Made by a program: the position numbers and the translations under genes
In this document: one piece after another, positions 1 through 62,188 of the stretch
Layout of the letters: every line of letters starts with the position of its first letter
Numbering within the stretch: position 1 is the stretch's first letter
Assembly: GCA_964016885.1 (NCBI GenBank)
Contig: CAXHJY010001386.1
Coordinates: 62,001 to 126,000, forward strand
DNA: 64,000 nt
Origin: Eledone cirrhosa
Taxonomy: Eukaryota
Direction of reading: 5' to 3'
Notes under the pieces: generated by a model
The model's input: the letters and a program-made list of their open reading frames with translations, nothing else
What the model was told of the DNA's origin: nothing
The model's database searches: none

Positions 1-1395
1 ATGAAGGTCACGGAAAAAGTAATAGTGCAACTAATCAGAGAGAGAATCGATCTAGATGAAATGCAGTTCGGGTTTGTGTCAGGCAAAAGTACCACAGACG
101 CTCTTTTCATTGTACGACAACTACAGGAGAAGTACCTAGCTAAAAGTAAACCCCTATACTTAGCCTTTGTCGACTTGGAGAAAGCCTTCGACAGAGTCCC
201 CCGTTCCATTATCTGGTGGGCTCTTAGAAAACTAGGTGTTGACAAATGGCTTGTGAGAGCTATACAAGCCATGTATAAAGAAACAGTGAGCAAGGTTAGA
301 ATTAACAACGAATATAGTGAAGAGTTTAGTGTAAAAGTTGGTGTCCATCAGGGCTCTGTTCTTAGCCCCCTACTATTCATTATTGCTCTTCAGGCTATAA
401 CAGAGGAGTTCAAGACCGGCTGCCCATGGGAACTCCTATACGCAGATGATCTAACGCTCATAGCTGAATCAATGACCGAACTAGAGAAGAAATTCCAAAC
501 ATGGAAGCACGGCCTAGAATCAAAAGGCCTTAAAATTAACATGGCTAAGACTAAAGTTCTAGTTTGTAGGAAAGAAAATAAGGCGCCGGTCCCTTCCGGG
601 AAATGGCCATGCTCAGTGTGTAGGAAAGGGGTAGGTAGAAACTCCATTTTATGTCCCAAATGCAAAGTATGGGTGCATAAAAGATGTAGTGGGATCACAG
701 GTAAGCTAACTAAGAACACAGATTTTACATGTGGCCGGTGCTCTGGTGCAATAAGTAGCAGCAAGTGTCCACAAAATACTAGCTCTTTCAACTGCGCAGA
801 GGGTTCTATAGAAATAGTGGACAGCTTCCGTTACCTGGGTGACAAAATCAGCAGTGGGGGAGGGTGCTCCGAAAGTACAGTAGCTAGAGTCAGAACTGGA
901 TGGAAAAAGTTCAGAGAGCTTATACCACTATTAGCCGCTAAAGGGTTCTCCCTAAAAGTGAAAGGCAGGTTGTATGATGCCTGCATACGAACAGCAATGT
1001 TACATGGCAGTGAGACCTGGGCATTGTGTGCAGAGGATATACGCAGACTAGAAAGGAACGAAGCTTGCATGCTCCGCTGGATGTGTAATAGTAATATACG
1101 CGAACGGCAAAGCATAAACGAACTAAGGAAAAAATTAGAAATAAGAGGGATCAGATGTTGTTTACTCGAGAGAAGGCTACGTTGGTATGGTCACGTGATG
1201 CGCATGAAAGACGACAGCTGTATAACAAAGTGCAGGGCAATAAAGATAGACGGTAGCCACGGAGTAGGCAGACCCAGAAAAACCTGGGACGAGCTGATAA
1301 ATTCCGACCTCACACACTTACATCTCTCCAAGACAATGTCACTGGACCGAGAGCTTTGGCGGTACTCAGTAATAGAGAAGACCCGCGTTACCTAA
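1..1395 (+). CDS. RTE ORF, partial: reverse transcriptase with internal PHD-type finger (610-741)
   Basis: Uninterrupted 464-aa frame with RT motifs and C-x2-C-x10-C-x2-C-x4-H-x2-C-x14-C-x2-C. Confidence 0.9.
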   Translation: MKVTEKVIVQLIRERIDLDEMQFGFVSGKSTTDALFIVRQLQEKYLAKSKPLYLAFVDLEKAFDRVPRSIIWWALRKLGVDKWLVRAIQAMYKETVSKVRINNEYSEEFSVKVGVHQGSVLSPLLFIIALQAITEEFKTGCPWELLYADDLTLIAESMTELEKKFQTWKHGLESKGLKINMAKTKVLVCRKENKAPVPSGKWPCSVCRKGVGRNSILCPKCKVWVHKRCSGITGKLTKNTDFTCGRCSGAISSSKCPQNTSSFNCAEGSIEIVDSFRYLGDKISSGGGCSESTVARVRTGWKKFRELIPLLAAKGFSLKVKGRLYDACIRTAMLHGSETWALCAEDIRRLERNEACMLRWMCNSNIRERQSINELRKKLEIRGIRCCLLERRLRWYGHVMRMKDDSCITKCRAIKIDGSHGVGRPRKTWDELINSDLTHLHLSKTMSLDRELWRYSVIEKTRVT

Positions 1396-1563
1396 ATACA
1401 AAGTAAAACCTACTACAGTCAGTAGGCATCTCTAACAAAATACACCCCCGTCCCACCACCCCCACCCCATCCACACCGCCCCTTTCAATGTAAAGTTATG
1501 TTGGTGCCACAAAATCCAGGCCGAAACAAATGAGATCGTGTAGGTGTCATGACAAAAAAAAAC

Positions 1564-1787
1564 ACAGTCCACGCTGTAATGTGACCGTGTAGGCAACACG
1601 GTAAAAACGTCCCAGTCCCACACTGTAAATGTGGTTGGTGTTAGGAAGGGCATCCAGCTGTAGAAAACCTGCCAGACAGTCCACGCTGTAATGTGGCCGT
1701 GTAGGCAACACGGTAAAAACCTCCCAGCCCCACACTGTAAATGTGGTTGGTGTTAGGAAGGGCATCCAACTGTAGAAAACCCGTCAG
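1564..1787 (+). repeat. 112-bp tandem duplication in RTE-A 3' UTR
   Basis: ACAGTCC starts at 1564, 1676 and 1788; two near-identical units. Confidence 0.9.
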
Positions 1788-1892
1788 ACAGTCCTATGCG
1801 AGCAAGACAACCACTCTTGCCTCAAGTGGGAAAACTCCCGTCCAAACCCATGCAAGCATGGAACACGGACGTTAAACGATGATGATGATGAT

Positions 1893-1959
1893 ATATATTC
1901 ATTTATATATATATATATTTATATATATATATATTTATATATATATTTATATATATTTA

Positions 1960-1992
<33 letters not shown>

Positions 1993-2005
1993 TTATAGAT
2001 ATAAA
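1893..2005. repeat. (TA)n microsatellite after RTE tail
   Basis: Direct reading. Confidence 0.95.
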
Positions 2006-2389
2006 TAAACCTGTTACGAGGTATGAATCTCAGAATTTGTCAACGCTTATTAATGGTCAGACCTCGTCGTCCCCTGCGAATTTTTCTTATCTCTCTCCAG
2101 CCTATCGGTCCATTCATTCATATATCCGTATCATCGCCCAGAATCCAATCTTTTGCTCTCTCAATGCTATTCTATAATTCTGTCTGGTTGTTTCTAAATA
2201 AGCTTCTTGTATTTTAAAACTCCATTATTCGCTTATTATTACTATTATATGCTTCTCCAATTATGCTCAAAATTCGAAGATTTCATTTTAACCCTCTCGC
2301 TAACTACCCCATACCCCATACCCCTCCCACCCGCCCCCACTCTCCACCATTATTATTAGGACCAATCATAAGTCAGCGGCCTATGCTAT

Positions 2390-3747
2390 CACTTCTGGTT
2401 GCTTGCCGATATGATGGATGGATATGGAATTCTGGAGAGTCTGAAAAATCTGGACACTCAGTGACAATGCTAAAGATAAAGACAAATTCACCACATGCTG
2501 CCGGACGAAAAGACAAGGACTCCTCCTCATTGTTTCGGCCGCGGATGGCCAACATAACCCCAACCCCACCCCCTCACTGCGTCCCACCGTTTCCACCCAC
2601 CAAACACAATCCAAAACTTCAGAGTTGGTACCATGAATGTAGGCACCTTAAAAGGTCGCTCTAACGATGTTGTAGAAATGCTTGAACGTAAGGAGGTTGA
2701 TGTTTGCTGTATCCAAGAGACCAGCTGGAGGGGTGGAACTGCTAGATTCATTGTGGGTAAAAAACGATGCTATAAGCTTTTCTGGGTGGGAAATGAAAAT
2801 GGGCTGGGTGGGGTAGGAATCATGTTAGCAGAAAAATGGGTAGATAAGATAATAGACGTAAATAGAGTGAACGACAGAATAATTAAAATAAGACTTGTCC
2901 TAAATGGAACTACTGTGACAGTAATATCTGCGTATGCACCCCAAACTGCCTGGCGCTATAAAAGACAGATTCTATGAGACATTGATGCTCACTACCTCCC
3001 AAATAACCGACAGTGACTACATAATTATTGCTGGCGACCTAAATGGTCACGTTGGACAACATTGTGACGGCTATGATGGAATCCATGGAGGCTATGGGTT
3101 TGGTACTAGAAATGAGGAAGGCTCCAGAATCCTGGAATTCTGCGACGCAAATAACCTAACTATCTGTAACACTAACTTAAAAAAACGAGACAATCACTTG
3201 ATCACCTATAGATCAGGGGAACACGCCAGTCAGATAGATTATATCCTTACCAGAAGACGTGATAGTGTCTGTTGTAAACACTAAATCCCTCCCCCCATGA
3301 AGAATGCACCTCCCAACATAGACTCTTAGTCAGCGACCTCATAGTCAGGACAAGACGTACTCGACAACAGAGGAGGACTATCCTCAGGAGAAAAATATGG
3401 AAACTAAAGGACCCCACAGCCACTACCCCCACCCCATCCACACCACCCCCTTAAATGTGAAGTTATGTTGGTACCACAACATCCAGTCCGAAACAAATGA
3501 GGTCGTGTAGGTGTCACGACAAAAAAAACACACAGTCCACGCTGTAATGTGGCCGTGTAGGTAACACGGTAAAAACCTCCCAGTCCACACTGTAAATGTG
3601 GTTGGTGTTAGGAAGGGCATCCAACCGTAGAAAACCCCCCAGACAGTGCTATACGAGCAGGACAACAAATCTTGCCTCAAGTGGGAAAACTCCCGTCCAA
3701 ACCCATGCAAGCGTGGAAGATGGACGTTAAACGATGATGATGATGAT
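2390..3747 (+). mobile_element. RTE-A copy 2: 5' region + APE endonuclease joined to the 3' UTR (about 2.3-kb internal deletion); 5' boundary approximate
   Basis: FRVGTMNVGTL, IQET, SAYAPQ, GDLNGHVG, SQIDYIL motifs; coding stops at KLKDPTA (3420) and continues as 3' UTR to a (GAT)n tail. Confidence 0.9.
2618..3420 (+). pseudogene. Frameshifted APE endonuclease domain of RTE-A
   Basis: Split across ORFs 2633-2977 and 2934-3284 plus a third frame; homologous to 45500-46090 on the minus strand. Confidence 0.9.
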
Positions 3748-3906
<159 letters not shown>

Positions 3907-3934
3907 CATATAAAAGCATTCACACACGTACACA

Positions 3935-4870
3935 TATCATCGTTTTGACATCTTTTCCAAGCCTGAATGACCCTTCCCCAAAACAGCATCTTGCCATGTA
4001 TTGCATTCCTTTGTCATATTCTTTGCGAGATTCTGCATCTTTAGATAATGTTTTCCTTGGTCTTCCTTTTCTGCAGGTTGTTTCCATTTGGAACTCTTGG
4101 CATTTCTTTACTCAACCATCATCATCTATACTGATTTAGTATCTGTACCAGCACAGTATTTTCTCTTGAACGCAGCATCCAATTCCTCTTATACTCAGAT
4201 TTTCTCTAAACTTATCTGTGCTTTGTTATTCATCTGTGTTAACACTACACTGCTGGCGGAGCTTGCTTGCTTCATTTTTTTCTAGTCATTGTTCATTCTC
4301 TGTGTTCCATGCAACATTGCACTATTTATACAATCTACCTTTTGCACAGACAGAATCACTTTGTAGCCAGCAAAGCTAATGGTTCCCTGAACTTTTTCCA
4401 TCCTACTACAGCTACCATGCTTTCAGAGCACCCTCCTCCATTACTAATTCAGTCACTTAGGTCACAGAATCTATTAACTACTTCTATGGAGCCTTCTAAG
4501 TATTGGAAAGATTTTATTTTACTGGTGCCCTGACGGCTGATACTGCAAATCCCACATATAAAACCTACATTCTCTGTTATCCTGCTTGCAATCCCACTAC
4601 ACCTATAGTATACACTATGTAATTCCTATCTACTCCTTCTCAGCATATTCAGCACAATCATTTCCCTTTTTGTCTTCTTTACTATTTGATAAGTTCATTC
4701 AGTCTTTTTGTTTTTTTCTGGATTTTCCAATCATCCCCATACTGAAATTCCCATAGACAACCAATCTTAAACATCTTTGTAATGGCTTAGAGAACTATGA
4801 TAAACAACCATGCCCCTTATGATTTAGCTCATTTTAAAGGATATTCTATTTCATGCGTTTGTATAAAATA
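3935..4870 (-). mobile_element. Old, degenerate RTE copy related to A/B/C (RT 3' half)
   Basis: 4380-4490 aligns with the SFRYLG-GGGCSE-GWKKFRE segment on the minus strand; GRPRKT remnant near 4050-4070. Confidence 0.7.
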
Positions 4871-7530: not shown

Positions 7531-7836
7531 ATTAATACAGATGCAGGTGTGACTGAGTTGTTATGAAGGGCACTTCACAACCTTGTGCTTTTTGATTGAA
7601 GAGGATATCTTTTACAGTAGCCTAGGGTGAATAGCTGAAGCCATTAAAAATCTGAATCACTTTTTATTATTTTCTTTTGCTTTGTTTATGAATGAAATGA
7701 AAATCAACAATAAATTGAGTGATTTAAAAAAAATACATGAAATGTATACTGTTTAATGTGTGTGCATGTGAGTGATGATGTTAGATATTATGTGTGTATT
7801 ATATCTGCATATACATATATGCATTATATATATATA

Positions 7837-10677
7837 ATAGATCCGGGGAACACACAAGCCAGGTAGATTATATCCTTACCAGAAGACGTGACAGAGTGTC
7901 TGTTGTAAACACTAAATCCCTCCCCCATGAAGAATGCACCTCCCAACATAGACTGATAATTAGCGACCTCATAGTCAGGACGAGACGTACTCGACAGCAG
8001 AAGAGGACTATCCTCAGGAGAAAAATATGGAAGCTAAAGGACCCCACAGCCAGGAATAAATTTCAAAGCATATTACTTGATGCTTTCGACAGTAAGGAAG
8101 AACATTTAGAGTCGGACAATATAGAGGGAGAGTGGGAATTTCTGAAAGCAAACCTGCTGTTGGCGACAGACGAAGTCTGTGGCTGGAGCAGGCCTGTAGG
8201 CAGGAGGAGAGTAACATGGTGGTGGAACAGTAAGGTGGAGGGGTCAATTAAGGCCAAAAAGCAGGCTTGGAAAGTATGGCGGGATGGGGGAAGTAGAGAG
8301 GACTATCAAGTGGCCAGGAGGGAAGCTAGGAGACAAGTGTACTTAGCAAGAAGGGAAGCTGAGGAAAGAAAGTTCAAGCATGTTCTACAACGCGATGACC
8401 AAAAACGTGAGGTGTTCAGGATTGCTAGGCAATGCGTCAAGGAAAACCGTGATATTGTCGGGGAGAAGTGTGTACTAAACGACGATGGCACACTTGCCAT
8501 CACCGACGCTGATAAGAAGGTAGCTTGGAAGTGTCACTATGAAAGGCTACTAAATGAGGAGAATAAATGGGAGAAAGACAGTCTCCCCCATATCGACCCA
8601 ATAGAGGGACCAGCAGTGTTAGTCGAGGGGAGTATAATAAGTAAGGCAATCAAGGATATGAAGACGGGTAAAGCGGCTGGGCCTTCGGAAATAGTTGCTG
8701 AGATGCTGAAGGCATCTGGCACGGTGGGACACACCATGGTCACCCGCATAGTTAACCAAGTCGTACAGAATGGGGTTGTTCCGAAGGACTGGCATAGCAG
8801 CATCATCGTTAACTGTTATAAGGGTAAAGGAGACGCCCTAGATAGGAGTAACTATAGAGGCATTAAATTAATCGACCAGGTCATGAAGGTCACCGAAAAA
8901 GTAATAGCGCAACTAATCAGAGAGAGAATTGACCTAGATGAAATGCAGTTCGGGTTTGTGTCAGGCAAAAGTACCACACACGCTCTTTTCATAGTACGAC
9001 AACTACAGGAGAAGTACCTAGCTAAAGGTAAACCCCTCTACTTAGCTTTTGTCGACTTGGAGAAAGCCTTCGACAGAGTCCCCCGCTCCATTATCTGGTG
9101 GGCTCTTAGAAAACTAGGCGTTGACGAATGGCTTGTGAGGGCTATACAAGCCATGTATAAAGAAACAGTCAGCAAGGTTAGAATTAACAACGAATATAGT
9201 GAAGAGTTTAGCGTAAAAGTTGGCGTCCATCAGGGCTCTGTTCTCAGCCCACTACTATTTATTATTGCCCTTCAGGCTATAACAGAGGAGTTCAAGACAG
9301 GCTGCCCATGGGAACTCCTATACGCAGACGACCTGACACTCATAGCGGAATCAATGGCCGAGCTAGAGAAGAAATTCCAAACATGGAAGCACGGCCTAGA
9401 GTCAAAAGGACTTAAAATTAACCTGGCTAAGACCAAAGTACTAGTTTGTAGGAAAGAAAACAAGGCGGCGGTCCCTTCTGGGAAATGGTCGTGCTCGGTG
9501 TGTAGGAAAGGCGTAGGTAGAAACTCCATTTTATGTCCTAAATGCAAAGTATGGGTGCATAAAAGATGTAGTGGGATCACAGGTAAGCTAACTAAGAACA
9601 TAGATTTTACATGTGGCCGGTGCTCTGGTGCAATAAGTAGCAGCAAGTGCCCACAAAATACTAGCTCTTTCAACTGCGCAGAGGGTTCTATAGAAATAGT
9701 GGACAGCTTCCGTTACCTGGGCGATAAAATCAGCAGTGGGGGAGGGTGCTCTGAAAGTACTGTAGCTAGAGTCAGAACTGGTTGGAAAAAGTTCAGAGAG
9801 CTTATACCACTATTAGCTGCTAAAGGGTTCTCACTAAAAATGAAAGGCAGGTTGTACGATGCCTGCATACGAACAGCAATGCTGCATGGCAGTGAGACCT
9901 GGGCATTGCGTGCAGAGGATATACGCAGACTAGAGAGGAACGAAGCTTGCATGCTCCGCTGGATGTGTAACAGTAATATACGTGAACGGCAAAGCATAAA
10001 CGAACTAAGGAAAAAATTAGAGATAAGAGGGATCAGATGTTGTTTACTCGAGAGAAGGCTACGTTGGTATGGACACGTGATGCGCATGAAAGTCGATAGC
10101 TGTATAACAAAGTGCAGGGCAATAAAGATAGACGGTAGTCACGGAATAGGCAGACCTAGAAAAACCTGGGACGAGCTGATAAACTCCGACATCACACACT
10201 TACACCTCTCCAAGACAATGTCACTGGACCGAGACCTTTGGCGGTACTCAGTAACAGAGAAGACCCGCCTTACCTAAATATATAGTAAAACCTACTCCAG
10301 CCAGTAGGCATCTCTAACAAAATACACCCCGTCCCACCACCACCACCCCCACCCCATCCACACCACCCCGTTCTATGTAAAGTTATGTTGGTGCCGCGCC
10401 ATCGAGGCCGAAACAAATGAGATCGTGTAGGTGTCACGACAAAAAAAACACACAGTCCACGCTGTAATGTGGCCGTGTAGGCAACACGGTAAAAACCTCC
10501 CAGACCCACACTGTAAATGTGGTTGGTGTTAGGAAGGGCATCCAACTGTAGAAAACCTGCCAGACAGTCCTATGCGAGCAAGACAATCACTCTTGCCTCA
10601 AGTGGGACTACCCCCGTCCAAACCCATGCAAGCGTGGAACACGGACGTTAAACGTTGATGATGATGATGATGATGAT
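7837..10677 (+). mobile_element. RTE-A copy 3, 5'-truncated inside the endonuclease, single-module 3' UTR, (GAT)n tail
   Basis: Starts after a short TA tract at RSGEHTSQVDY; intact frame to EKTRLT*; tail at about 10658-10677. Confidence 0.95.
7839..10277 (+). CDS. RTE ORF lacking its N-terminus: end of APE, linker, RT, PHD finger (9492-9623), C-terminal domain
   Basis: About 812 open codons; NYRGIKL, YADD, FRYLG; no native start, the first residues of the track ORF come from flanking microsatellite. Confidence 0.88.
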   Translation, partial: RSGEHTSQVDYILTRRRDRVSVVNTKSLPHEECTSQHRLIISDLIVRTRRTRQQKRTILRRKIWKLKDPTARNKFQSILLDAFDSKEEHLESDNIEGEWEFLKANLLLATDEVCGWSRPVGRRRVTWWWNSKVEGSIKAKKQAWKVWRDGGSREDYQVARREARRQVYLARREAEERKFKHVLQRDDQKREVFRIARQCVKENRDIVGEKCVLNDDGTLAITDADKKVAWKCHYERLLNEENKWEKDSLPHIDPIEGPAVLVEGSIISKAIKDMKTGKAAGPSEIVAEMLKASGTVGHTMVTRIVNQVVQNGVVPKDWHSSIIVNCYKGKGDALDRSNYRGIKLIDQVMKVTEKVIAQLIRERIDLDEMQFGFVSGKSTTHALFIVRQLQEKYLAKGKPLYLAFVDLEKAFDRVPRSIIWWALRKLGVDEWLVRAIQAMYKETVSKVRINNEYSEEFSVKVGVHQGSVLSPLLFIIALQAITEEFKTGCPWELLYADDLTLIAESMAELEKKFQTWKHGLESKGLKINLAKTKVLVCRKENKAAVPSGKWSCSVCRKGVGRNSILCPKCKVWVHKRCSGITGKLTKNIDFTCGRCSGAISSSKCPQNTSSFNCAEGSIEIVDSFRYLGDKISSGGGCSESTVARVRTGWKKFRELIPLLAAKGFSLKMKGRLYDACIRTAMLHGSETWALRAEDIRRLERNEACMLRWMCNSNIRERQSINELRKKLEIRGIRCCLLERRLRWYGHVMRMKVDSCITKCRAIKIDGSHGIGRPRKTWDELINSDITHLHLSKTMSLDRDLWRYSVTEKTRLT

Positions 10678-15684: not shown

Positions 15685-16354
15685 ATCATCATCATCATCA
15701 TCATCAGGTTTAGCGTCCGTGTTCCACGCTTGCATGGGTTTGGACGGGGGTTTTCCCACTTGAGGCGAGAGTGGTTGTCTTGCTCGCATAGGACTGTCTG
15801 GCGGGTTTTCTACAGTTGGATGCCCTTCCTAACACCAACCACATTTACAGTGTGGGGCTGGGAGGTTTTTACCGTGTTGCCTACACGGCCACATTACAGC
15901 GTGGACTGTCTGGCGGGTTTTCTACAGCTGGATGCCCTTCCTAACACCAACCACATTTACAGTGTGGGTCTGGGAGGTTTTTACCGTGTTGCCTACACGG
16001 CCACATTTACAGCGTGGACTGTGTTTTTTTGTCGTGACACCTACACGATCTCATTTGTTTCGGCCTGGATGTTGTGGGACCAACATAACTGTACATTGAA
16101 AGGGGCGGTGTGGATGGGGTGGAGGTGGTGGGACGGGGGGGTGTTTTGATAGAGATGCCTACTGACTGTAGTAGGTTTTTACTTTGTATTTAGGTAAGGC
16201 GGGTCTTCTCTATTACTGAGTACCGCCAAAGGTCTCGGTCCAGTGACATTGTCTTGGAGAGGTGTAAGCGTGTGAGGTCGGAATTTATCAGCTCGTCCCA
16301 TGTTTTTCTGGGTCTGCCTACTCCGTGGCTACCGTCTATCTTTATTGCCCTGCA
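15685..16354 (-). mobile_element. RTE-A 5'-truncated copy with duplicated 3' UTR module
   Basis: CRAIKIDG...EKTRLT* on minus, two UTR modules, (ATC)n at the left end. Confidence 0.95.
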
Positions 16355-17436: not shown

Positions 17437-18223
17437 ATCATCATCATCAACGTTTAACGTCCGTGTTCCACGCTTGCATGGGTTTGGACGGGGGTAGTCC
17501 CACTTGAGGCAAGAGTGATTGTCTTGCTCGCATAGGACTGTCTGGCAGGTTTTCTACAGTTGGATGCCCTTCCTAACACCAACCACATTTACAGTGTGGG
17601 GCTGGGAGGTTTTTACTGTGTTGCCTACACGGCCACATTACAGCGTGGACTGTGTGTTTTTTTGTCGTGACACCTACACGATCTCATTTATTTCGGCCTG
17701 GATGGCGCGGCACCAACATAACTTTACATAGAACGGGGTGGTGTGGATGGGGTGGTGGTGGGACGGGGTGTATTTTGTTAGAGATGCCTACTGGCTGGAG
17801 TAGGTTTTACTATATATTTAGGTAAGGCGGGTCTTCTCTGTTACTGAGTACCGCCAAAGGTCTCGGTCCAGTGACATTGTCTTGGAGAGATGTAAGTGTG
17901 TGAGGTCGGAATTTATCAGTTCGTCCCAGGTTTTTCTGGGTCTGCCTACTCCGTGGCTACCGTCTATCTTTATTGCCCTGCACTTTGTTATACAGCTATC
18001 GACTTTCATGCGCATCACGTGTCCATACCAACGTAGCCTTCTCTCGAGTAAACAACATCTGATCCCTCTTATCTCTAATTTTTTCCTTAGTTCGTTTATG
18101 CTTTGCCGTTCACGTATATTACTGTTACACATCCAGCGGAGCATGCAAGCTTCGTTCCTCTCTAGTCTGCGTATATCCTCTGCACACAATGCCCAGGTCT
18201 CACTGCCATGCCGCATTGCTGTT
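17437..18223 (-). mobile_element. RTE-A 5'-truncated copy
   Basis: HGSETW...EKTRLT* plus 3' UTR and (GAT)n tail on minus. Confidence 0.95.
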
Positions 18224-18232
18224 ATATATATG

Positions 18233-18275
<43 letters not shown>

Positions 18276-18351
18276 ATGTATATATGTATATGTATATATG
18301 TATGTATATATATATATATGTATGTATGTATATATGTATATATATGTATGT

Positions 18352-18392
<41 letters not shown>

Positions 18393-18435
18393 TATATTTA
18401 TATATATATATATATGTATGTATATATATATATAT

Positions 18436-20270
18436 TTAACCAGGTAATACTAGAGGGGGCCATACCAAAAGATTGGTGCAGTAGCATCATTGTCAACTGC
18501 TACAAAGGTAAAGGCGATGCACTAGATAGAGGAAACTATAGAGGTATAAAGTTGATGGACCAGGTCATGAAAGTAACAGAAAGAGTTATAGCACAGCTGA
18601 TTAGGGACCGGGTGAATATAGACGAGATGCAATTTGGGTTTGTACCAGGGAAAGGCACCACTGATGCGCTCTTCCTTGTGAGGCAATTACAGGAAAAGTA
18701 CCTAGCTAAAAGTAAGCCACTCTACTTGGCATTTGTCGACCTTGAGAAAGCCTTTGACAGAGTTCCACGTGCAGTAATCTGGTGGGCTCTTAGAAAACTA
18801 GGAGTAGATGAATGGCTTGTGAAAGCGGTACAAGCCATGTATAGGGGAGCAGTCAGCAAAGTTAGGATTGGCAATGAGTATAGCGAGGAATTTAGCGTAC
18901 AGGTTGGGGTCCACCAGGGCTCTGTTCTTAGCCCTCTCCTGTTCATCATAGTCCTGCAGGCAATAACGGAGGAGTTTAAGACCGGATGCCCATGGGAACT
19001 CCTGTATGCTGATGACCTCGCACTCATAGCTGAATCTATGGTAGAACTAGAGAATAAATTCCAAACCTGGAAGCAGGGACTAGAGAGAAAGGGCCTCAAA
19101 GTCAACATGACAAAGACTAAGGTCCTTATAAGTAGACGAGAAAACAGAACCCAGATCCCCTCAGGGAAATGGCCTTGCTCAGTATGTAGGAAAGGTGTAG
19201 GTAGGAACTCCATTCTTTGCCCCAAATGCAAACAATGGGTACACAAGAGATGTAGCGGGATCTCAGGAAGCTTAATTAAGAATGTAGGATTCACATGCAG
19301 CAGCTGTGCTGAAACAGCAAGCAAACAGCCACAGGAAACAAGTACCACCAATCTCTGGGTGGGCCCTGTAGAAACAGTAGACAGCTTCTGCTACCTAGGT
19401 GACCGAATTAGCAACGGAGGTGGGTGCTCAGAAAGTACAATAACTAGGGTAAGAACGGGATGGAAGAAGTTTAGGGAACTACTACCACTGCTAGCTGCAA
19501 AAGGCTTCTCCCTCAGAATGAAAGGCAGACTGTATGATGCGTGTATCCGAACAGCGATGTTGCATGGTAGTGAGACCTGGGCGCTGAAGGTGGAAGACTT
19601 ACGTAGATTAGAGAGAAACGAAGCCTGCATGCTCCGATGGATGTGTAACAGTAATATACGTGAACGACAAAGCATAAATGAATTGAGAGAGAGACTGAGC
19701 ATAAGAGGAATCAAATGCTGCGTGCAGGAGAGGCGGTTACGCTGGTATGGACATGTGATGCGTATGAAGGATGACAGCTGCATAAAAAGGTGCAGAGCAC
19801 TAGAAGTTGATGGAAACCGCGGAGTGGGGAGACCCAAGATGACTTGGGATGAGGTGATAAAAGCCGACCTTACCCAACTACACCTCTCAAAGTCAATGAC
19901 ACACGACCGTGACTTCTGGCGTCACGCAGTAATACAGGGTACCCGACCTCCCATGGGTACATGCTGAAGCATATAAACAATATGCCCCCCCCCCACCGCA
20001 AGGTGGTCGTGGAGGTGCCCACGGCAAAAAAGCACCCAGCCCCACACTGTAAAGTGGACGTGTAGGCGCCACGAAAAAGCACCCAGCACTCACTGTAAAT
20101 GAGGTTGGTGTTAGGAAGGGCATCCAGCTGTAGAAATCAAGCCAGATCAGTTCCTGTATGAGCAAGGCATGGTCAGCCGACCAGACACTGCCCCACAACA
20201 GGACAACCCGTCTAACCCATGCTAGCGTGGAAGAACGGACGTAAAAACGGTGATGATGATGATGATGATG
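18436..20270 (+). mobile_element. RTE subfamily B, 5'-truncated copy
   Basis: Diverged RT+PHD ORF ending [10 protein letters not shown], distinct 3' UTR, GGT(GAT)n tail, TA array on both sides. Confidence 0.95.
18438..19967 (+). CDS. RTE-B ORF, partial: RT + PHD finger
   Basis: Open frame [13 protein letters not shown]...YADD...FCYLG...; the upstream part of the track ORF is microsatellite. Confidence 0.85.
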
Positions 20271-20481
20271 TATATATATATGTATGTATATATATATATG
20301 TATGTATATATATATATGTATGTATATATATATATGTATGTATATATATATATGTATGTATATATATATGTATGTATATATATATATGTATGTATATATA
20401 TATATGTATGTATATATATATATGTATGTATATATATATATGTATGTATATATATGTGTATATATATATATATGTATGTAT

Positions 20482-25173: not shown

Positions 25174-25607
25174 TCCAAGACAATGTCACTGGACCGAGAC
25201 CTTTGGCGGTACTCAGTAATAGAGAAGACCCGCCCTTACCTAAATACATAGTAAAACCTACAACAGCCAGTAGGCATCTCTAACAAAATACACCCCCATC
25301 CACACCACCCCCTCCTATGAAAAGTTATGTTGGTGCCACACCATCCAGGCCGAAACAAATGAGATCGTGTAGGTGTCACGACAAAAAAACACACAGTCCA
25401 CGCTGTAATGTGGCCGTGTAGGCAACACGGTAAAAACCTCCCAGACCCACACTGTAAATGTGGTTGGTGTTAGGAAGGGCATCCAACTGTAGAAAACCTG
25501 CCAGACAGTCCTCTGCGAGCAAGGCAATCACTCTTGCTTCAAGTGGGAATACCCCCGTCCAAACCCATGCAAGCGTGGAACACGGACGTTAAACGTTGAT
25601 GATGATG
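25174..25607 (+). mobile_element. RTE-A 3'-end fragment
   Basis: [14 protein letters not shown] plus 3' UTR plus (GAT)n. Confidence 0.95.
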
Positions 25608-32389: not shown

Positions 32390-34759
32390 TTTAACACCCA
32401 CACACAACCACCACATAACTCAAACAAGGAATCCCACCAAATCTGCCGCTTTATCCCTGCGAGACAGATTGTGTATAGACCGGGATTGTCCCTTTACCCA
32501 TCTCCCGGGGACCCGTCGGACAAATGAAAATAAAATTAAAAATAAAAGCAAAAACAAAAACCATAACCTACATAAAAATAACCACTACCCACAGTCACCA
32601 ACAGTCTTCTAAACAGGAAACTTCTTCCTCTTTTTTTAGCCATAATGAATCTGGCAAAAGAACTGGAAAAAAACATTCGAGCTATCACCCAGCACTACCC
32701 TCCTCTATCACCCCACTGCACAAACTCCCATTGCTGCCATTAACAAACAAACAAATTAACAACACACCAAAACAATTAAAACCATCCACTCTCGCCTCTA
32801 CATTTTTGCTTAACGCCCAAGGCATCAGCCCTTCCACCAATACTCAAAAATGGAAGATCAAATTCCTGGAGGACTGGATTGATGTCCATCCAAACCACAT
32901 CCCTTTCTTCATCCTCACTGAAACCCATCTCAGTAACCTCCACTTGGAAGCCGAGGTGAAAGTGAAAAATTTCAAAGCCATCCGTGCTGATCGTGCTGGC
33001 AGAAGAAAGGGCGGGACTGCCATTTATGTCCATAATTCTTTCTCAACAGAGGCTATGAACATATTCACTAATGGATACTGTGAAGCAGTCACTGTATTCA
33101 GTCAAACCAACAACCTAATAGTAGTTGGGCTCTATAGGCCACCCCAAACGCCTGTACCATGCTTCAAGGAATGCCTCAACAGCATAAAGTGTTTCATCCA
33201 AGAGTGTCACCCTGACAACATCTTAATGATGGGGGACTTCAACCTCCCCGGAGTTGACTGGTCCACAAACAGCCTGCCACCAGGTTCTTCTGCCTCAACC
33301 TCTGACAGGGAAGCAGTGGAATCGCTTCTTGACTTCATGGATGATTTCTTCCTATCCCAACTGGTGCTCGAACCAACGAGGTGCCACAAAAACGTCCTAG
33401 ACTTAATTTTCAGCAATCACACTGACAATATCCACAATATTGCAGTGGAGAAAACTCTACTCTCTGATCATGACATGGTTCTCTGTGATCTGAGATTCCA
33501 CCGTCCAATATACAAACCCAATGTCATCTCTCCTGTCCATCCGTTTGACGCTATGGATTTCCACAATGCAAACTGGGAAGCGATCAGTCATGATCTTGCA
33601 CATGTCGACTGGTCCTTCACGCACACTCATACACCCACTAACATCAAAAAGTCCTGGCAGACATTTGTGGACACTGTTACAAACATATGTGCAAAACACA
33701 CCCCATTAAGAACTATAAACAAATCTAAGAGCAGAATCCCTAGAAATAGAAAAACGCTCATCAGAAAAATTAAGAGAACGAACAAAAAAAATCAACAAGC
33801 TGAAATACTGTCAGCAGCAACACATCAACTTGACTGCCATTTCATCACTAGAGATTAAAAAACATAACCTCCAAAACAACATAATGTCCCTCATCAACAA
33901 TCAGAGAAGAGCTGAAGAGGCCTGGGCCATTGAGAAGATCAAACTCAATCCCAAAGTGTTCTTTTCATTTGCAAAAAAACACAAAATCACTGGCTCTACT
34001 GTTAGCCCTCTAATTGATGAAAATGGCACTCTTCAAGACAATGCTAAAACCATGGGTGAGATACGGCAGAAACAATACTGCTCTGTTTTCAGCAATCCTG
34101 ATATGGCCGATCTGGGCTGTATCGGCGATGTTACTCCCCATTACACCTTATCGGACATAAAGTTTGGTGCCCTGATGTCTTAGCGGCAATAAAGGAAATC
34201 AAGCATAATTCAGCAGTAGGTCCCGATAGGTTCCCTGCTTGTGTCTTGAAGGCGTGTCAACACCAACTTGCATCTCCTCTTGCCAATCTGTGGCGGAACT
34301 CACTGGATGCTGGATATGTGCCAGAAAACCTATCCCAGTCTGTTGTCCCAGTTTTCAAAAAGGGAAACAAATCCCTTGCCGTGAATTACCGTCCAATCTC
34401 ACTCACCTCTCATATCATTAAGGTATTTGAGAGAGTGGTGAGATCGCGAATGACCCACTTCCTCGAGAGTAACAATATGCTGAACTCCAACCAGCATGAA
34501 TTCCGTAATGGAAGGGATTGCCTGACGCAGCTACTGCATCACTTTGATGACATTTTGAGAGCCTTGGGAGAGGGTTCCAACACTGATGTTATCTACCTTG
34601 ATTTCAGCAAGGCCTTTGACAGGGTTGATCATAACATTCTACTGAGAAAGCTGTCCAATATTGGTGTCACTGGAAAGCTGCTGCAGTGGATCAAGAGCTT
34701 CCTGTCAAACAGAACCCAACATGTTGTAGTTGAGGGAGTCAAATCAAGCCCAGCCAAAT
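32390..34759 (+). mobile_element. CR1-like LINE fragment: ORF1 C-terminal Cys/His motif, APE endonuclease and N-half of RT; frameshifted, 3' half missing
   Basis: LCIDRDCPFTHLPGTRR near 32470-32520; LNAQG, LTETHL, GGTAIYV, GLYRPP, MGDFN, LDLIF, SDH; NYRPISLTS, DVIYLDFSKAFDRVDH. Confidence 0.88.
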
Positions 34760-35686
34760 CAGCAAAGAGCCACAGGAAACAAGTACCACCAATCTCTGGG
34801 AGGGCTCTGTAGAGACAGTAGACAGCTTCTGCTACCTAGGTGACCAAATTAGCAGCGGAGGTGGGTGTTCAGAAAGTACAATAACTAGGGTAAGAACGGG
34901 ATGGAAAAAGTTCAGGGAACTACTACCACTGCTAGATACAAAAGGCTTCTCCCTCAAAATGAAAGGCAGACTGTATGATGTGTGTATCCAAACAACAATG
35001 TTACATGGTAGTGAGACCTGGGCGCTGAAGGTGGAAGACTTGCGTAGATTAGAGAGAAATGAAGCCTGCATGCTCCGATGGATGTGTAATAGTAATATAC
35101 GCAAACAACAAAGCATAAATGAATTGAGAGAGAGACTGAGCATAAGAGGAATCAAATGCTGTGTGCAGGAGAGGTGGATGCGTTGGTATGGACATGTGAT
35201 GCGTATGAAGGATGACAGCTCCATAAAAAGGTGCAGAGCACTAGAAGTCGATGGAAACCGCGGAGTGGGGAGACCCAAGATGACCTGGGATGAGGTAATA
35301 AAAGCCGACCTTACCCAATTACACACGACTGTGTCCTCTGGCGTCACGCAGTAATACAGAGTACCCGACCTCCCATGGGTACAAGCTGAAGCATATAGAC
35401 AATATGCCCCCACACCCTCCCACTGCAAGGTGGTCGTGGAGGTGCCACGGCAAAAAAGCACCCAGCCCACACTGTAAAGTGGATGTGTAGGCGCCACAAA
35501 AAAGCACCCAGCACTCACTGTAAATGAGGTTGGTGTTAAGAAGGGCATCCAGCTGTAGAAATCAAGCCAAATCAGTTCCTGTATGAGCAAGGCATGGTCA
35601 GCCGACCAAACACTGCCCACAACAAGACAACCCGTCTAACCCATGTTAGCGTGGAAGAACAAACGTAAAACGGTGATGATGATGAT
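34760..35686 (+). mobile_element. RTE-B 5'-truncated copy joined directly to the CR1-like RT
   Basis: Matches 19315-20270; (GAT)n tail. Confidence 0.93.
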
Positions 35687-35832
35687 ATATATAGATATGG
35701 TGTGTTTCTTATTGGCAACATGACCCTCCCAAAGTATAACAATATCGGTTTCAACACACTTTTTCAGATAAAGAATCTTGCTAAACAAATTCGGAAACGA
35801 AATATATAGATATATATATAGATATATATAGA

Positions 35833-42899: not shown

Positions 42900-45800
42900 A
42901 TCATCATCATCAACGTTTAACGTCCGTGTTCCACGCTTGCATGGTTTTGGACGGGGGTATTCCCACTTGAGGCAAGAGTGATTGTCTTGCTTGCATAGGA
43001 CTGTCTGGCAGGTTTCCTACAGTTGGATGCCCTTTCTAACACCAACCACATTTACAGTGTGGGTCTGGGAGGTTTTTACCGTGTTGCCTACACGGCCACA
43101 TTACAGCGTGGACTGTGTGTTTTTTGTCGTGACACCTACATGATCTCATTTGTTTCGGCCTGGATGGCGCGGCAGCAACATAACTTAACATAGAATGGGG
43201 TGGTGTGGATGTGGTGGGACGGGGGTGTATTTTGTTAGAGATGCCTACTGGCTGTAGTAGGTTTTACTATGTATTTAGGTAAGGCGGGTCTTCTCTGTCA
43301 CTGAGTACCGCCAAAGGTCTCGGTTCAGTGACATTGTCTTGGAGACGTGTAAGTGTGTGAGGTCGGAGTTTATCAGCTCGTCCCAGGTTTTTCTAGGTCT
43401 GCCTATTCCGTGGCTACCGTCTATCTTTATTGCCCTGCACTTTGTTATACAGCTATCGACTTTCATGCGCATCACGTGTCCATACCAACGTAGCCTTCTC
43501 TCGAGTAAACATCTGATCCCTCTTATTTCTAATTTTTTCCTTAGTTCGTTTATGCTTTGCCGTTCACGTATATTACTATTACACATCCAGCGGAGCATGC
43601 AAGCTTCGTTCCTCTCTATCCTGCGTATATCCTCTGCACACAATGCCCAGGCCTCACTGTCATGCAACATTGCTGTTCGTATGCAGGCATCATACAACTT
43701 GCCTTTCATTTTTAGGGAGAACCCTTTAGCAGCTAATAGTGGTATAAGCTCTCTGAACTTTTTCCATCCAGTTCTGACTCTAGCTACTGTACTTTCAGAG
43801 CACCCTTCCCCACTGCTGATTTTGTCGCCCAGGTAACGGAAGCTGTCCACTATTTCTGTAGAACCCTCTGCGCAATTGAAAGAGCTAGTATTTGTGGGCA
43901 CTTGCTGCTACTTATTGCACCAGAGCACCGGCCACATGTAAAATCTATGTTCTTAGTTAGCTTACCTGTGATCCCACTACACCTTTTATGCACCCATACC
44001 TTGCATTTGGGACATAAAACGGAGTTTCTACCTACGCCTTTCCTACACACTGAGCATGGCCATTTCTCAGAAGGGACCGCCGCCTTATTTTCTTTCCTAC
44101 AAACTAGAACTTTAGTCTTAGCCAGGTTAATTTTTAGTCCTTTTGATTCTAGGCCGTGCTTCCATGTTTGGAATTTCTTCTCTAGCTCGGCCATTGATTC
44201 AGCTATGAGTGTCAGGTCGTCTGCGTATAGGAGTTCCCATGGGCAGCCGGTCTTGAACTCCTCTGTTATAGCCTGACGGGCAATAATAAATAGTAGGGGG
44301 CTGAGAACAGAGCCCTGATGGACGCCAACTTGTACGCTAAACTCTTCACTATATTCGTTGTTAATTCTAACCTTGCTGACTGTTTCTTTATACATGGCTT
44401 GTATAGCTCTCACAAGCCATTCATCAACACCTAGTTTTCTAAGAGCCCACCAGATAATGGAACGGGGGACTCTGTCGAAGGCCTTCTCCAAGTCGACGAA
44501 AGCTAAGTATAGGGGTTTACTTTTAGCTAGATACTTCTCCTGTAGTTGTCGTACAATGAAAAGAGCGTCTGTGGTACTTTTGCCTGACACAAACCCGAAC
44601 TGCATTTCATCTAGATCAATTCGCTCTCTGATTAGTTGCGCTATTACTTTTTCTGTGACCTCCATGACCTGGTCAATTAATTTAATGCCTCTATAGTTAC
44701 TCCTATCTAGGGCATCTCCTTTACCCTTATAACAGTTAACGGTGATGCTGCTACGCCAGTCCTTCGGAACAACCCCATTCTGTATGACTTGGTTGACTAT
44801 CCGGGTGACCATGGTGTGTCCCACCGTACCAGATGCCTTCAGCATCTCGGCAACTATTTCCGAAGGCCCAGCCGCCTTGCCTGTCTTCATATCTTTGATT
44901 GCCTTACTTATTATACTACCCTCGACTAACACTGCTGGTCCCTCTATTGGGTCGATGTGGGGGAGACTGTCTTTCTCCCATTTATTCTCCTCATTTAGAA
45001 GCCTTTCATAGTGACACTTCCAAGCTACCTTCTTATCGGCGTCGGTGATGGCAAGTACGCCGTCATCGTTAAGTACACACTTCTCCCCGACAATATCACT
45101 GTTTTCCTTGACACATTGCCTAGCAATCCTGAACACCTCACGTTTTTGGTCCTCACGTTGTAGAACATGCTTGAACTTTCTTTCCTCTGCTTCCCTTCTT
45201 GCGAAGTACACTTGTCTCCTAGCTTCCCTCCTGGCCACTAGATAGTCTTCTCTGCTTCCCCCATCCCGCCATACTTTCCAAGCCTGCTTTTTGGCCTTAA
45301 TTGACCCCTCCACCTTACTGTTCCACCACCATGTTACTCTCCTCCTGCCTACAGGCCTGCTCCAGCCACAGACTTCGTCTGTTGCCGTCAGCAGGTTTGC
45401 TTTCAGGAATTCCCACTGTTCCTCTACCTTGTACGACTCTAATTGCTCTTCCTTACTGTCGAAAGCATCAAGTAATATGCTTTGGAATTTATTTTTGGCT
45501 GTGGGGTCCTTTAGCTTCCATATTTTTCTCCTGAGGATAGTCCTCTTCTGTTGTCTAGTACGTCTCGTCCTGACTATTAGGTCGCTAATTATCAGTCTAT
45601 GTTGGGAGGTGCATTCTTCATGGGGGAGGGATTTAGTGTTTACAACAGTCACTTTGTCACGTCTTCAGGTAAGGATATAATCTACCTGGCTGGTATGTTC
45701 CCCTGATCTGTAGGTGATCAAGTTATTGTCTCGTTTTTTGAAGTTAGTGTTGCAGATAGTTAGGTTATTTGCGTCACAGAATTCCAGGATTCTGGAGCCT

Positions 45801-48190: not shown

Positions 48191-49203
48191 GTTTCTTTTA
48201 TTTGCCACCAGGGCATCAAAAGTGGGACAAGTACAATGGGGGGAGTTTACAAAACAAGGCGTCCTCAATAAGGAGGAGGCAAAACAAAATATAAAAATAA
48301 AATAAAATATAACAGAATAAAATATATAACAAAATTCTCAATAGAGAGGAGGCGCCTTGGGGGGTCGCACACACCCCCGAAAAAAAGTGTGCAACCCTTT
48401 TCCTCAGGAGCACAGAGAAGGGGTGCTCCCTTGGTCTTTCATCTTCCTCACCTATAGTCTGATGTAGAGTGAAGGCCCATTCACACGGGCCATTCTCGCC
48501 ACTTTCACCCATCTTTCATAAAAACGGCTGGGGTGCAGCACCTCTCTCTCCATCCTGATCCTTCTTCCGAAATGATATCGGAAGAAACGGACCAGTTGTT
48601 GGCCAGAGAGAAAGGTGTCTGACCTCAGTCCTTTCAGACGCGTCCACCATACAACCGCTTTCGCCATGGCTATTACGCACAGAAACACCGCCTCTTCTTC
48701 GTTTTTGAAGAGGGGAGGCGGCTTGATCGTTACAATAGACTCGGTGGTCAACCGGATCGGTCCCACCCTTGACAGCAGTTGTTCGACATAGCCCCACAGA
48801 TCGGCTACGCCCGAGCAGTGTACCAATGTGTGTGCAACGGTTTCCGCGTCGCACACGCATCTGGGACAGATCTTTTTCGAGGGGTCCCTACCCGGGCGCC
48901 CATGTCTGTAGAGCCTTTCTCGAACGGGCAGAGCCCTTCTGTTGCATTGCCAGGCCAGGGACCTCTGGAAGTTATCCATGGGTCCCGGGCTGAATGTCCT
49001 ACCGAACAGGTTGGCCAGTTCCTCTTCCTCCATGTCTAGGGCTTCTCCGAGGGCGTCGTCGCACCTGCTAACCACCAGCCCTCTATAGAATGACGAGGTG
49101 GATTCTCCACTGACAGCCGGGTCCGCCTGCCAGAGAGCCGTGAGCGCCTGGGCACACTCGGTGTCCCAGGCGCCCAGTTTTCTCGGTCTTTGCTTGACCC
49201 AGG
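48191..49203 (-). mobile_element. Tx1/L1-like LINE 3' fragment with CCHC zinc finger and 3' UTR
   Basis: AWQCNRRALPVRERL...CPRCVCDAETVAHTLVHC...W; T-rich 3' UTR ending AATAAAAGAAAC; flanked by TAGA/TA repeats. Confidence 0.8.
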
Positions 49204-49244
49204 ATAGATAGATAGATAGATAGATATACATGTATATATATATA

Positions 49245-49533
49245 TGGTGGCTGCCAACTCGTTTTCGAGTATGGCCACTATTTTATATCCATGTAGGAGA
49301 ACCCCTACCGATGCGCTGAACGAGTGTGACTTTTTAGTCCAGCCAGCGACTTGAAAACACTGGTACAAACACCTCCCTTGTGACAATTATTGACACATAG
49401 TGCTGGGCCCATGGTACCATGTGACAAGTGCAGAGAGATCTCCAGATATAAAGCAATGCCTGTGCCGTGAAGCTTTTATAGTGAGCAAAGGCACTGCACA
49501 AAGCCAGTCCCACTCTCTTAACCAAGAAGATAT
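49245..49533 (-). mobile_element. 3' end of the C2H2-tipped LINE family, copy 2
   Basis: Highly similar to 16957-17250 with the same 3' terminus before (TA)n. Confidence 0.7.
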
Positions 49534-61021: not shown

Positions 61022-62188
61022 CTAGCATTAAAGCCCGGCGTTGCTCGGGATCATTAAGTTACCAAAGTTAGGTTGCACCACCCATTTTATGGCAGCACTT
61101 TTTTGTCTGCCAGGCACTGGGTGAATGAATTGCAGACCTGGAAGCAGGAGCTGCGCCAGCAGTGACAATTGTAGTTTCGCCTATGGATATTATCTCTGTG
61201 CAAAAAAGTGTTGAAATTTATTGTTTCACAGTACTTGCGCAACACGCGCGTAGACGATGCCAGCCGAACAACAGAGCTGCGATGGAGTTGTTCTGCATGG
61301 TTGTCTGTGTGTTTTCTAAATTTAAGACAGTAGGGAGGGTTGTGATATGAGGGAGAGTTAGCTGTTGTTTCTAGCAGGTTTAGTGACCTCATAGAGGATA
61401 TGTGTTTTCTAAATTTAAGACAGTAGGGAGTGGTGTGATATGGGGGAGAGTTAGCTGCTGTTTCTAGCAGGTTTAGTGACCTCATAGAAGATATGTTTTC
61501 TAAATTTAAGACAGTAGGGAGGGGTGTGATATGGGGGAGAGTTAGCTGCTGTTTCTAGCAGGTTTAGTGACCTCATAGAGGATATTATTGTTTATCATTA
61601 TCTATAAAAGGCAGATTGTTGTTGTTGTTGTTGAAGTGAGTGTGTGTTTGTATGCGTTTGGAAAAGAGGTTTTAAAAAAGATTTATCGCTTGTTGTTGAA
61701 TAAATGTATCTGATGCTTTTGAATAATTGTCGTTTCGTATGAAATGTAATAATTGTTTCTACTTTTTTGGCACAAGGCCAGCAATTACCCAGTACATTAC
61801 TGGTACTTTATGTAATAATAAACGTTCTCTATCTCTCTCTCCTCACTCTCTTCTCTCTCTCTCTTCGGCAATCATGCACGTTGTCAGATGATATGAGAGA
61901 GTAAAACGGACAGTATCACCATCAAGCTTGGAAAGAGAAAGTAGCAGAAAGTATGAAGTTGTATAGATTTTGAATGGTAGTGGAAAGAGTTTAGCAGTTT
62001 AAATGACAGAGGAAAATCGTAAAATATTGAGTTTTATCTATTTTTTGCGTAATTGTGGGTGAAATTGAAAAAATTAGATGTGCCAAGACGCAATCGATGC
62101 TATTTTGAATACTGAATTGTAAATTTCAATTGAAGAAATTCTATATCGTAGATTTCTATAAGAAAGGAGCATGACCGCACACTGAGCT
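61022..62188 (-). mobile_element. Non-autonomous Helitron-like element with internal tandem repeat and SINE fragment
   Basis: Minus strand starts TCTATAAAAG and ends with hairpin CCCG-AGCAACGC-CGGG then CTAG|T; SINE family 2 tail at 61748-61811. Confidence 0.6.
61311..61584. repeat. 91-93-bp tandem repeat x3
   Basis: GTTTTCTAAATTTAAGACAGTAGGGAG starts at 61311, 61404 and 61495. Confidence 0.95.

What the first reader, a model, noticed from the sequence alone, without database searches (positions are those of the whole stretch)
2525..3502. RTE-A 5' region is complementary to its own 3' UTR (possible RNA circularisation)
Seen: 2525-2558 CCTCAT-TGTTTCGGCC-GC-GGATGG-CCAACATAAC is the reverse complement, in collinear blocks, of a 3' UTR segment present in every A copy that spans it: GTTATGTTGG-(7-nt bulge)-CCATCC-A-GGCCGAAACA-A-ATGAG (best match at about 25324-25363; also 1495-1534, 3462-3502, 10382-10421). 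About 30 bp could pair. The 5' partner covers an ATG (2545) and the TAA (2555) just upstream of the endonuclease frame. B and C 3' ends lack this segment. Inference: end-to-end pairing like RNA-virus cyclisation sequences could switch translation versus reverse transcription or favour full-length templates; LINEs are not normally described with such sub-terminal inverted repeats. Only one 5' end is visible, so the claim rests on one copy.
Basis: partly seen in the sequence, partly recalled or inferred. Interest (0 to 1): 0.78.

Follow-up and report, generated by a model that had tools for sequence, protein, structure and literature searches.

The report
LINE whose two ends are complementary
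One lineage of a very common jumping gene carries about 30 bases near the start of its protein-coding frame that match, in reverse, a piece of its own tail; the two pieces have changed together at two positions, so the RNA likely folds end to end, which would be new for this class of element but is untested.

Summary
The match is real and lineage-wide. The 5' arm (2526-2558) is in 39 of 39 other top genomic hits, and both arms lie in cis in 67 of 98 copies examined. The match beats 300 of 300 shuffles; families B and C show nothing like it. Corrections: the arm is coding sequence (codons about 21-31), at least 0.7 kb from the 5' end. The 3' arm is the first unit of a tandem tail array also found in B, so the 5' arm is probably an inverted self-copy. 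An older sister family D keeps both arms, with two double changes: G-C to A-U, and A-U to C-G through a mismatched subfamily. A post hoc null gives about 0.01 for both, but overall pair retention is only p 0.07-0.12, three pairs are broken, and full-length folds omit the helix. Best reading (0.45): selected long-range RNA pairing that damps translation. Rivals: neutral relic (0.28); relic repaired by fold-back conversion (0.22).

The parts
2000..3746 (+). One internally deleted, frameshifted copy of RTE-type LINE family A, subfamily A1 (5' region, endonuclease part, 3' tail); start approximate, copy is 5'-truncated
2467..2469 (+). Upstream in-frame ATG, likely start of the single ORF (kept in A and D)
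2526..2558 (+). 5' arm: 33 nt of the N-terminal linker (peptide SLFRPRMANIT), reverse complement of the 3' arm; A2529 is private to this copy
2545..2547 (+). Second in-frame ATG inside the 5' arm; opens 1,030-1,034 codons in intact copies
2559..2617 (+). C-rich hypervariable linker; an 8-nt private deletion here shifts the frame and makes TAA2555 look like a stop
2618..3420 (+). APE-type endonuclease coding part (broken)
   Evidence: Pfam PF03372, PF14529
3420..3421 (+). Junction of a roughly 2.3-kb internal deletion (endonuclease joined to 3' UTR at a C-rich microhomology); not seen in 39 other top hits
3462..3502 (+). 3' arm in cis: first, diverged unit (U1) of the tail array plus the start of U2
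3465..3482 (+). Predicted local 6-bp hairpin in U1 (-5.5 kcal/mol), mutually exclusive with the long-range helix
3496..3640 (+). Tail units U2-U4 (about 48 nt each), shared with the family B tail and the family C 5' UTR
3733..3746 (+). (GAT)n 3' end
1495..1535 (+). 3' arm of another A copy
10382..10422 (+). 3' arm of another A copy (young type)
25324..25364 (+).
16049..16089 (-). 3' arm of another A copy
17682..17722 (-). 3' arm of another A copy
43144..43184 (-). 3' arm of another A copy

Best explanation
A 33-base stretch in the N-terminal coding linker of one RTE-type LINE lineage is the reverse complement of the first repeat unit of its own 3' tail; it likely began as an inverted self-copy of that unit and is likely kept because the two arms pair in the RNA, closing a 3.2-kb loop that would damp translation and favour use of the RNA as a reverse-transcription template. 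Shown: complementarity in cis, its spread over families A and D, its absence from B and C, the tail-unit homology, and the pattern of changes. Inferred: the direction of the copy (tail to linker) and selection on the pairs. Predicted only: the helix competes with a 6-bp local hairpin in the tail unit; elongating ribosomes open it; it closes on untranslated RNA over the second in-frame ATG, about 60 nt behind the first; and the reverse transcriptase unzips it after the first 270 nt. The translation-damping step has no direct evidence; I chose it from the position of the arm.
For: Pair 14 (2539:3487) is A-U in D, C x U in A1 (5' C in 23 of 24, 3' T in 22 of 24) and C-G in mid (3' G in 9 of 10) and young (19 of 19). 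A tree rooted on D and B puts A1 basal and the repaired copies in one clade (bootstrap 100). Pair 7 (2532:3494) is G-C in A and A-U in most D: 5' A in 94 of 100 listed D arms (G in 5; one has A beside another change), 3' T-type 4,517 hits against 539 for the minor type, and one cis pair 3,215 bp apart, against 0 of 94 A-type 5' ends. A lineage-aware null gives 0.005-0.009 for a double change in both lineages. Four of five changes in the 16 pairs around the ATG keep the pair (p 0.08). In the young subfamily an A-to-C change (16 of 19) weakens the local hairpin and allows one more long-range G-C pair. When only the two ends are folded together, 15 or more pairs form in 5 of 8 A0, 8 of 10 mid, 14 of 19 young, 10 of 23 A1 and 3 of 3 D copies. 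The peptide over the arm differs between D and A (read from the sequences), so protein constraint does not explain the match.
Against: The statistic was chosen after seeing the data, and I assigned the changes to lineages by hand. Broken pairs overall: 3 observed against 5.3-5.9 expected, p 0.07-0.12; with the minor D tail p 0.40. A pooled null gives 0.07-0.20 for two doubles. Pairs 11-12 are broken in most D, pair 30 in 13 of 19 young copies, and A1 spread widely with a mismatch. All three D copies sequenced at both ends carry the minor tail and a weak duplex (-24.5 to -29.9). The cis link for pair 7 rests on 1 of 16 coordinates, and a predicted partner near C1:143,950,500 was not listed. The 5' arm is not significantly more conserved than the linker (A1 against young 2 of 33 against 19 of 102, Fisher p 0.10; D against A 6 of 33, like the upstream flank). 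The 3' arm (4 of 41) is no more conserved than the tail behind it (13 of 218). The helix is absent from 3 of 3 full-length minimum-energy folds; forcing it costs 4.6-18.6 kcal/mol. B and C lack it and are far more abundant. There are no RNA data.
Confidence: 0.45

Rival explanations
1. Neutral relic. An antisense piece of the tail was captured in frame in the dispensable N-terminal linker before D and A split, and the arms are still alike only because the lineage is young and the tail is conserved for its own reasons. The two double changes are chance.
For: U1 is homologous to the other tail units (1, 0 and 3 of 1,000 shuffles for U2, U3 and the first B unit). The stretch upstream of the endonuclease is 76 nt longer in A than in B (224 against 148). 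There is no significant extra conservation of either arm, several pairs are broken, overall retention is p 0.07-0.12, and chimeric and nested copies are common.
Against: Needs two double changes by chance, one of them two transversions in order (0.005-0.009 under the lineage-aware null). Changes near the ATG mostly keep pairs.
Confidence: 0.28
2. Relic kept matched by repair, not by function. The arms pair transiently in the RNA or in the folded-back cDNA during reverse transcription, and short template switches copy one arm onto the other, which mimics compensation without selection.
For: Both double changes end as one arm being an exact complement of the other in a short tract. Recombinant copies show template switching in this family (L188, L199, L205). 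Fold-back repair of inverted repeats is recalled, not tested here.
Against: Mismatches a few bases away (pairs 11-12 in D, the 7-nt bulge, the internal loop) were never converted in any sampled subfamily. No copy with a converted bulge was seen among 67.
Confidence: 0.22
3. Chance complementarity, or each arm belongs to a separate local structure such as a ribozyme.
For: U1 has its own local hairpin. The 3' arm contains a GGCCGAAAC motif that resembles a hammerhead strand (recalled).
Against: 0 of 300 shuffles reach the score. No Rfam ribozyme match in window 1-4000 or in 8 loci. No CTGA-N-GA core on the + strand near either arm. Neither arm folds better than shuffles alone.
Confidence: 0.05

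Closest known systems
HIV-1 gag-U3R 5'/3' interaction (PMC1976439; abstract and section list seen)
   Same: A coding stretch several hundred nt from the 5' end pairs with sequence flanking a 3' hairpin in a retroelement RNA.
   Different: There it was shown in vitro and is conserved across subtypes, in an LTR genome that needs strand transfer. Here it is only predicted, in a non-LTR element primed at the target, and is limited to one lineage.
Ty1 CYC5/CYC3 cyclization (PMC7969010; passages seen)
   Same: Short complementary cis sequences near the two ends of a retrotransposon RNA.
   Different: Ty1 pairing is tied to tRNA priming and particle-based reverse transcription. LINEs have no tRNA primer or strand transfer (established knowledge), so the purpose must differ.
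RTE-clade LINEs, e.g. octopus RTE-2_OV (PMC9115989; passages seen)
   Same: Single ORF with endonuclease and RT, a zinc-binding domain, long UTRs and a microsatellite 3' end.
   Different: No 5'/3' complementarity is mentioned in the passages seen. RTE-2_OV is 1,109 aa with a mostly microsatellite 3' UTR. No sequence comparison was made. That this genome is a cephalopod is my untested guess from its size and repeats.
Twin-priming and template-switch inversions of L1 (PMC2837659; start of abstract in a listing)
   Same: A known route to inverted self-derived sequence in LINE copies.
   Different: Those are dead genomic copies. Here the inverted piece is fixed in the master lineage, in frame, 3.2 kb from its source.

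Membership tests
RTE-clade non-LTR retrotransposon | Single ORF with APE endonuclease and RT | tested here: met
   Intact A copy L108: 1,058 aa, PF03372/PF14529 and PF00078
RTE-clade non-LTR retrotransposon | 3' end of short tandem repeats, frequent 5' truncation, no LTRs | tested here: met
   (GAT)n ends and truncated copies
RTE-clade non-LTR retrotransposon | Placement in the RTE clade of an RT tree with named references | not tested
5'-3' cyclization element (Ty1 CYC, HIV-1 gag-U3R, flavivirus type) | Complementary arms in cis in one RNA, beyond chance | tested here: met
   67 of 98 copies; 0 of 300 shuffles
5'-3' cyclization element (Ty1 CYC, HIV-1 gag-U3R, flavivirus type) | Compensatory changes across lineages | tested here: inconclusive
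   Two double changes (null 0.005-0.009), three breaks, overall p 0.07-0.12
5'-3' cyclization element (Ty1 CYC, HIV-1 gag-U3R, flavivirus type) | Helix favoured over local structure | tested here: inconclusive
   Forms in 40 of 63 two-end folds, in 0 of 3 full-length folds
5'-3' cyclization element (Ty1 CYC, HIV-1 gag-U3R, flavivirus type) | Pairing shown in RNA and needed for replication | not testable with these tools
   Needs probing and mutants
5'-3' cyclization element (Ty1 CYC, HIV-1 gag-U3R, flavivirus type) | Shared by related active families | tested here: not met
   B (2 copies) and C (1 copy) scored like shuffles; alignments of 16 copies each lack both arms
Terminal inverted repeat | Arms at the element's ends | tested here: not met
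   At least 0.7 kb from the 5' end and about 270 nt from the 3' end
Hammerhead or HDV-like ribozyme | Rfam match or catalytic core | tested here: not met
   no custom HDV descriptor search was run

The most novel reading that the evidence does not exclude
A LINE lineage turned an inverted copy of its own tail unit into a selected RNA switch. The coding 5' arm displaces the local hairpin of the first tail unit and closes the transcript end to end, coupling translation to template use. It would be a cyclization element in an autonomous non-LTR retrotransposon, with its birth and its pair-by-pair compensation readable in one genome.
Probability: 0.4. Interest if true: 0.8.

Novelty: new variant of a known kind. 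Interest (0 to 1): 0.58.

Why it matters
How a LINE RNA switches from message to template, and how its protein finds its own RNA's tail, is an open question (my own knowledge). A discrete 30-bp helix with natural compensated, mismatched and absent variants makes one answer directly testable. RTE UTRs are also being optimised for gene writing (PMC13708176, passages seen), where an arm inside the ORF would be missed. I found no description of 5'/3' pairing in a LINE in five full-text searches (listings only; the library lacks most subscription papers). If neutral, it is still a dated case of a LINE gaining N-terminal coding sequence from its own antisense tail.

Tried and rejected
Rfam on window 1-4000 and on 8 loci: only microsatellite-driven or sub-threshold matches. 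Single-arm folds were no better than shuffles. A DNA search with family B returned nothing because its words are too common; a protein search worked. A protein search with the N-terminal 120 aa gave 8 relatives that match the endonuclease only, with no shared linker, so it gave no outgroup. Sequencing runs: no RNA holder was listed. Contigs of 4 other organisms were laid on the stretch. Only X8 covered the 5' arm, with no difference there among the rows shown (126 rows hidden), and X12's differences at 3490-3495 look like mis-laid tail units, so there is no cross-species covariation test. Of 20 probes for D 5' ends, 3 held the arm, 1 had it deleted and 16 were not element 5' sequence. My first D tail sample (20 copies picked by likeness to one copy) was biased to the minor type; genome counts reversed this, so the '4 of 10 keep' test (p 0.57) used the minor type. 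Cis matching by coordinates: 0 of 4 (one search list), 1 of 16 (one search list), 0 of 25 (one search list). The true 5' end of A was not defined. Earlier scan notes for this genome: none. Deeper sampling of D at both ends remains open.

Full report
What the window holds. The window lies in a 3.0-Gb animal genome (G000:C1413) and is packed with non-LTR retrotransposon pieces and AT microsatellites. The flagged copy (about 2000-3746, +) has a 5' region, an APE endonuclease part and a tail ending in (GAT)n. About 2.3 kb, including the whole RT, is deleted at 3420; none of 39 other top hits has this deletion. Intact relatives encode one ORF with endonuclease, RT and a PHD finger (1,058 aa in L108), an RTE-type layout. 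No tree with named references was built.

The observation. The letters are as stated, and the 3' arm occurs in 7 window copies. The inverted match beats 300 of 300 dinucleotide shuffles in the window copy and in 4 of 5 other A copies; the fifth was masked by microsatellite. Two B copies and one C copy score like shuffles. The 5' arm is in 39 of 39 other top hits, and a 19-nt core pattern has 1,090 hits against 3 for the control. Of 99 copies fetched with a 5' arm, 98 could be anchored and 67 had both arms in cis on a collinear element; 31 were truncated, interrupted or deleted and were dropped.

Corrections. A2529 is private (T in 38 of 39). The best partner named, 25324, is from the young subfamily; the cis partner 3462 gives -40.7 rather than -46.7 kcal/mol. 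The arm is coding. In intact copies ATG2545 opens 1,030-1,034 codons, and an upstream in-frame ATG (2467) is present in 81 of 97 copies. TAA2555 falls in the endonuclease frame only through an 8-nt private deletion. Shared sequence runs at least 0.7 kb upstream of the arm, and the 3' arm is about 270 nt from the end.

Origin. The 3' arm is the first unit (U1) of an array of roughly 48-nt tail units. It aligns to U2, U3 and the first B unit beyond shuffles (1, 0 and 3 of 1,000), and weakly or not at all to the other B and C units (20-92 of 1,000). B has the array but neither arm, and its stretch upstream of the endonuclease is 76 nt shorter. The simplest history is an antisense copy of the U1/U2 junction captured in frame in the linker. 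The direction is inferred.

Evolution of the pairs. Of the 67 copies, 61 fall into four groups: A1 (24), A0 (8), mid (10) and young (19). Six intermediates or recombinants were left out of the group counts. An older sister family D, about 85% like A in the RT, keeps both arms. A tree of the ORF end rooted on D and B puts A1 basal. I number the 5' arm from 2526. Pair 14 is A-U in D, mismatched in A1, and C-G in mid and young (A0 mixed, 4 of 8 G). Pair 7 is G-C in A and A-U in most D. The D 5' arm has A in 94 of 100 listed hits by my count, with G in 5 and one more A beside another change. The D-type tail with T has 4,517 hits against 539 for a minor type that keeps C. T-type tails sit on RTs 90-94% like D, and one 5'/3' pair lies 3,215 bp apart in cis: 1 of 16 testable, against 0 of 94 for A-type 5' ends. 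Pairs 23, 25 and 33 switch between Watson-Crick and G-U. Pairs 11-12 are broken in most D (of 100 listed T-type tails, 17 keep the G of pair 11), and pair 30 is broken in 13 of 19 young copies.

How strong this is. With changes assigned to lineages by hand, a double change in both lineages has a null chance of 0.005-0.009. Three or fewer broken pairs has 0.07-0.12, and 0.40 if the minor D tail is used. A cruder pooled null gives 0.07-0.20 for two doubles. These tests are post hoc. Conservation adds little. For A1 against young, the 5' arm has 2 of 33 changes against 19 of 102 in the linker (p 0.10); fourfold sites have 53 of 367; the 3' arm has 4 of 41 against 13 of 218 behind it. For D against A, the 5' arm (6 of 33) is like its upstream flank. 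The peptide over the arm changes between D and A, so it is not a conserved protein motif.

Folding. U1 has a predicted 6-bp local hairpin whose 3' strand has the same six letters as part of the 5' arm, so the two structures exclude each other. The young subfamily has weakened this hairpin. Folding the two ends together (300 + 380 nt; shorter tails for D) gives 15 or more long-range pairs in 40 of 63 copies. Full-length minimum-energy folds omit the helix in 3 of 3 copies, at a cost of 4.6-18.6 kcal/mol to force it. Such long folds are unreliable (PMC7969010, passage), but they do not support the helix.

Mechanism. I commit, at 0.45, to a selected long-range helix born from a relic. It would close over the second ATG, about 60 nt behind the first, and sequester U1 from its local hairpin. 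Elongating ribosomes would open it, and the RT would unzip it early. It would thus bias an RNA away from new initiation and toward template use. Everything after 'the arms can pair and have covaried twice' is prediction. It is not essential for RTE success: B and C lack it and have about 91,000 and 94,000 first-look candidates, counts that cover related families too. The rivals are a neutral relic (0.28), a relic repaired by fold-back conversion (0.22), and chance or ribozyme (0.05).

Known systems. It would work like HIV-1 gag-U3R pairing (PMC1976439, abstract) or Ty1 CYC5/CYC3 (PMC7969010, passages), but membership is unproven: covariation is inconclusive, no RNA test exists, and sister families lack it. 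It is not a terminal inverted repeat. Searches (listings) showed no LINE case. PMC9115989 (passages) describes an octopus RTE without such a feature in the passages seen. No supplements were read.

Verdict. A real, lineage-wide feature with corrected anatomy and suggestive but thin evidence of maintained pairing. New variant of a known kind; interest 0.58.

Noticed in passing
L141 about 1350-1450 (family C) against window 3496-3640 and 20000-20260: The tail-unit module ending in GGAAGGGCATCC lies in the 5' UTR of family C, just before or overlapping the ORF start, but in the 3' UTR of A, B and D. C's own 3' UTR is only about 60 nt. A UTR module seems to have moved between ends.
   Followed up: partly
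window 18432-20315; L120-L135: Family B is very young: 150 of 150 scored hits are 100% identical over 150 aa, many with a 1,040-codon open frame. Short upstream frames end just before its ATG.
   Followed up: partly
window 7785-10277, 18063-19967, 43850-45664: A PHD finger directly follows the RT domain in A, B and C and in several database relatives.
   Followed up: no
window 32479-35690: A different endonuclease-RT LINE is cut at about 34770 and continues as a B-like RTE 3' half: a chimera or nested insertion.
   Followed up: no
window 1564-1794 and 15791-16022: A 112-bp tandem duplication in the tail of two A copies; L031, L049 and L069 have a similar but offset duplication, so tail-unit number varies.
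   Followed up: no
L176/L205, L188, L199: Recombinant copies: a mid-type 5' region on an A1-type body, and one 5' junction that repeats the 5' arm upstream.
   Followed up: partly
L013, L022-L025 upstream of the match: Some A1 copies carry a longer 5' UTR with an internal duplication.
   Followed up: no
window 10392-10399 and runs X7, X8: The young-type bulge variant GCCGCGCC also appears in contigs of other organisms, so these subfamilies may be shared across close species.
   Followed up: no
window 48455-49282 (-) and 61308-61585: A zf-RVT match of another retroelement, and a 91-bp three-copy tandem repeat.
   Followed up: no
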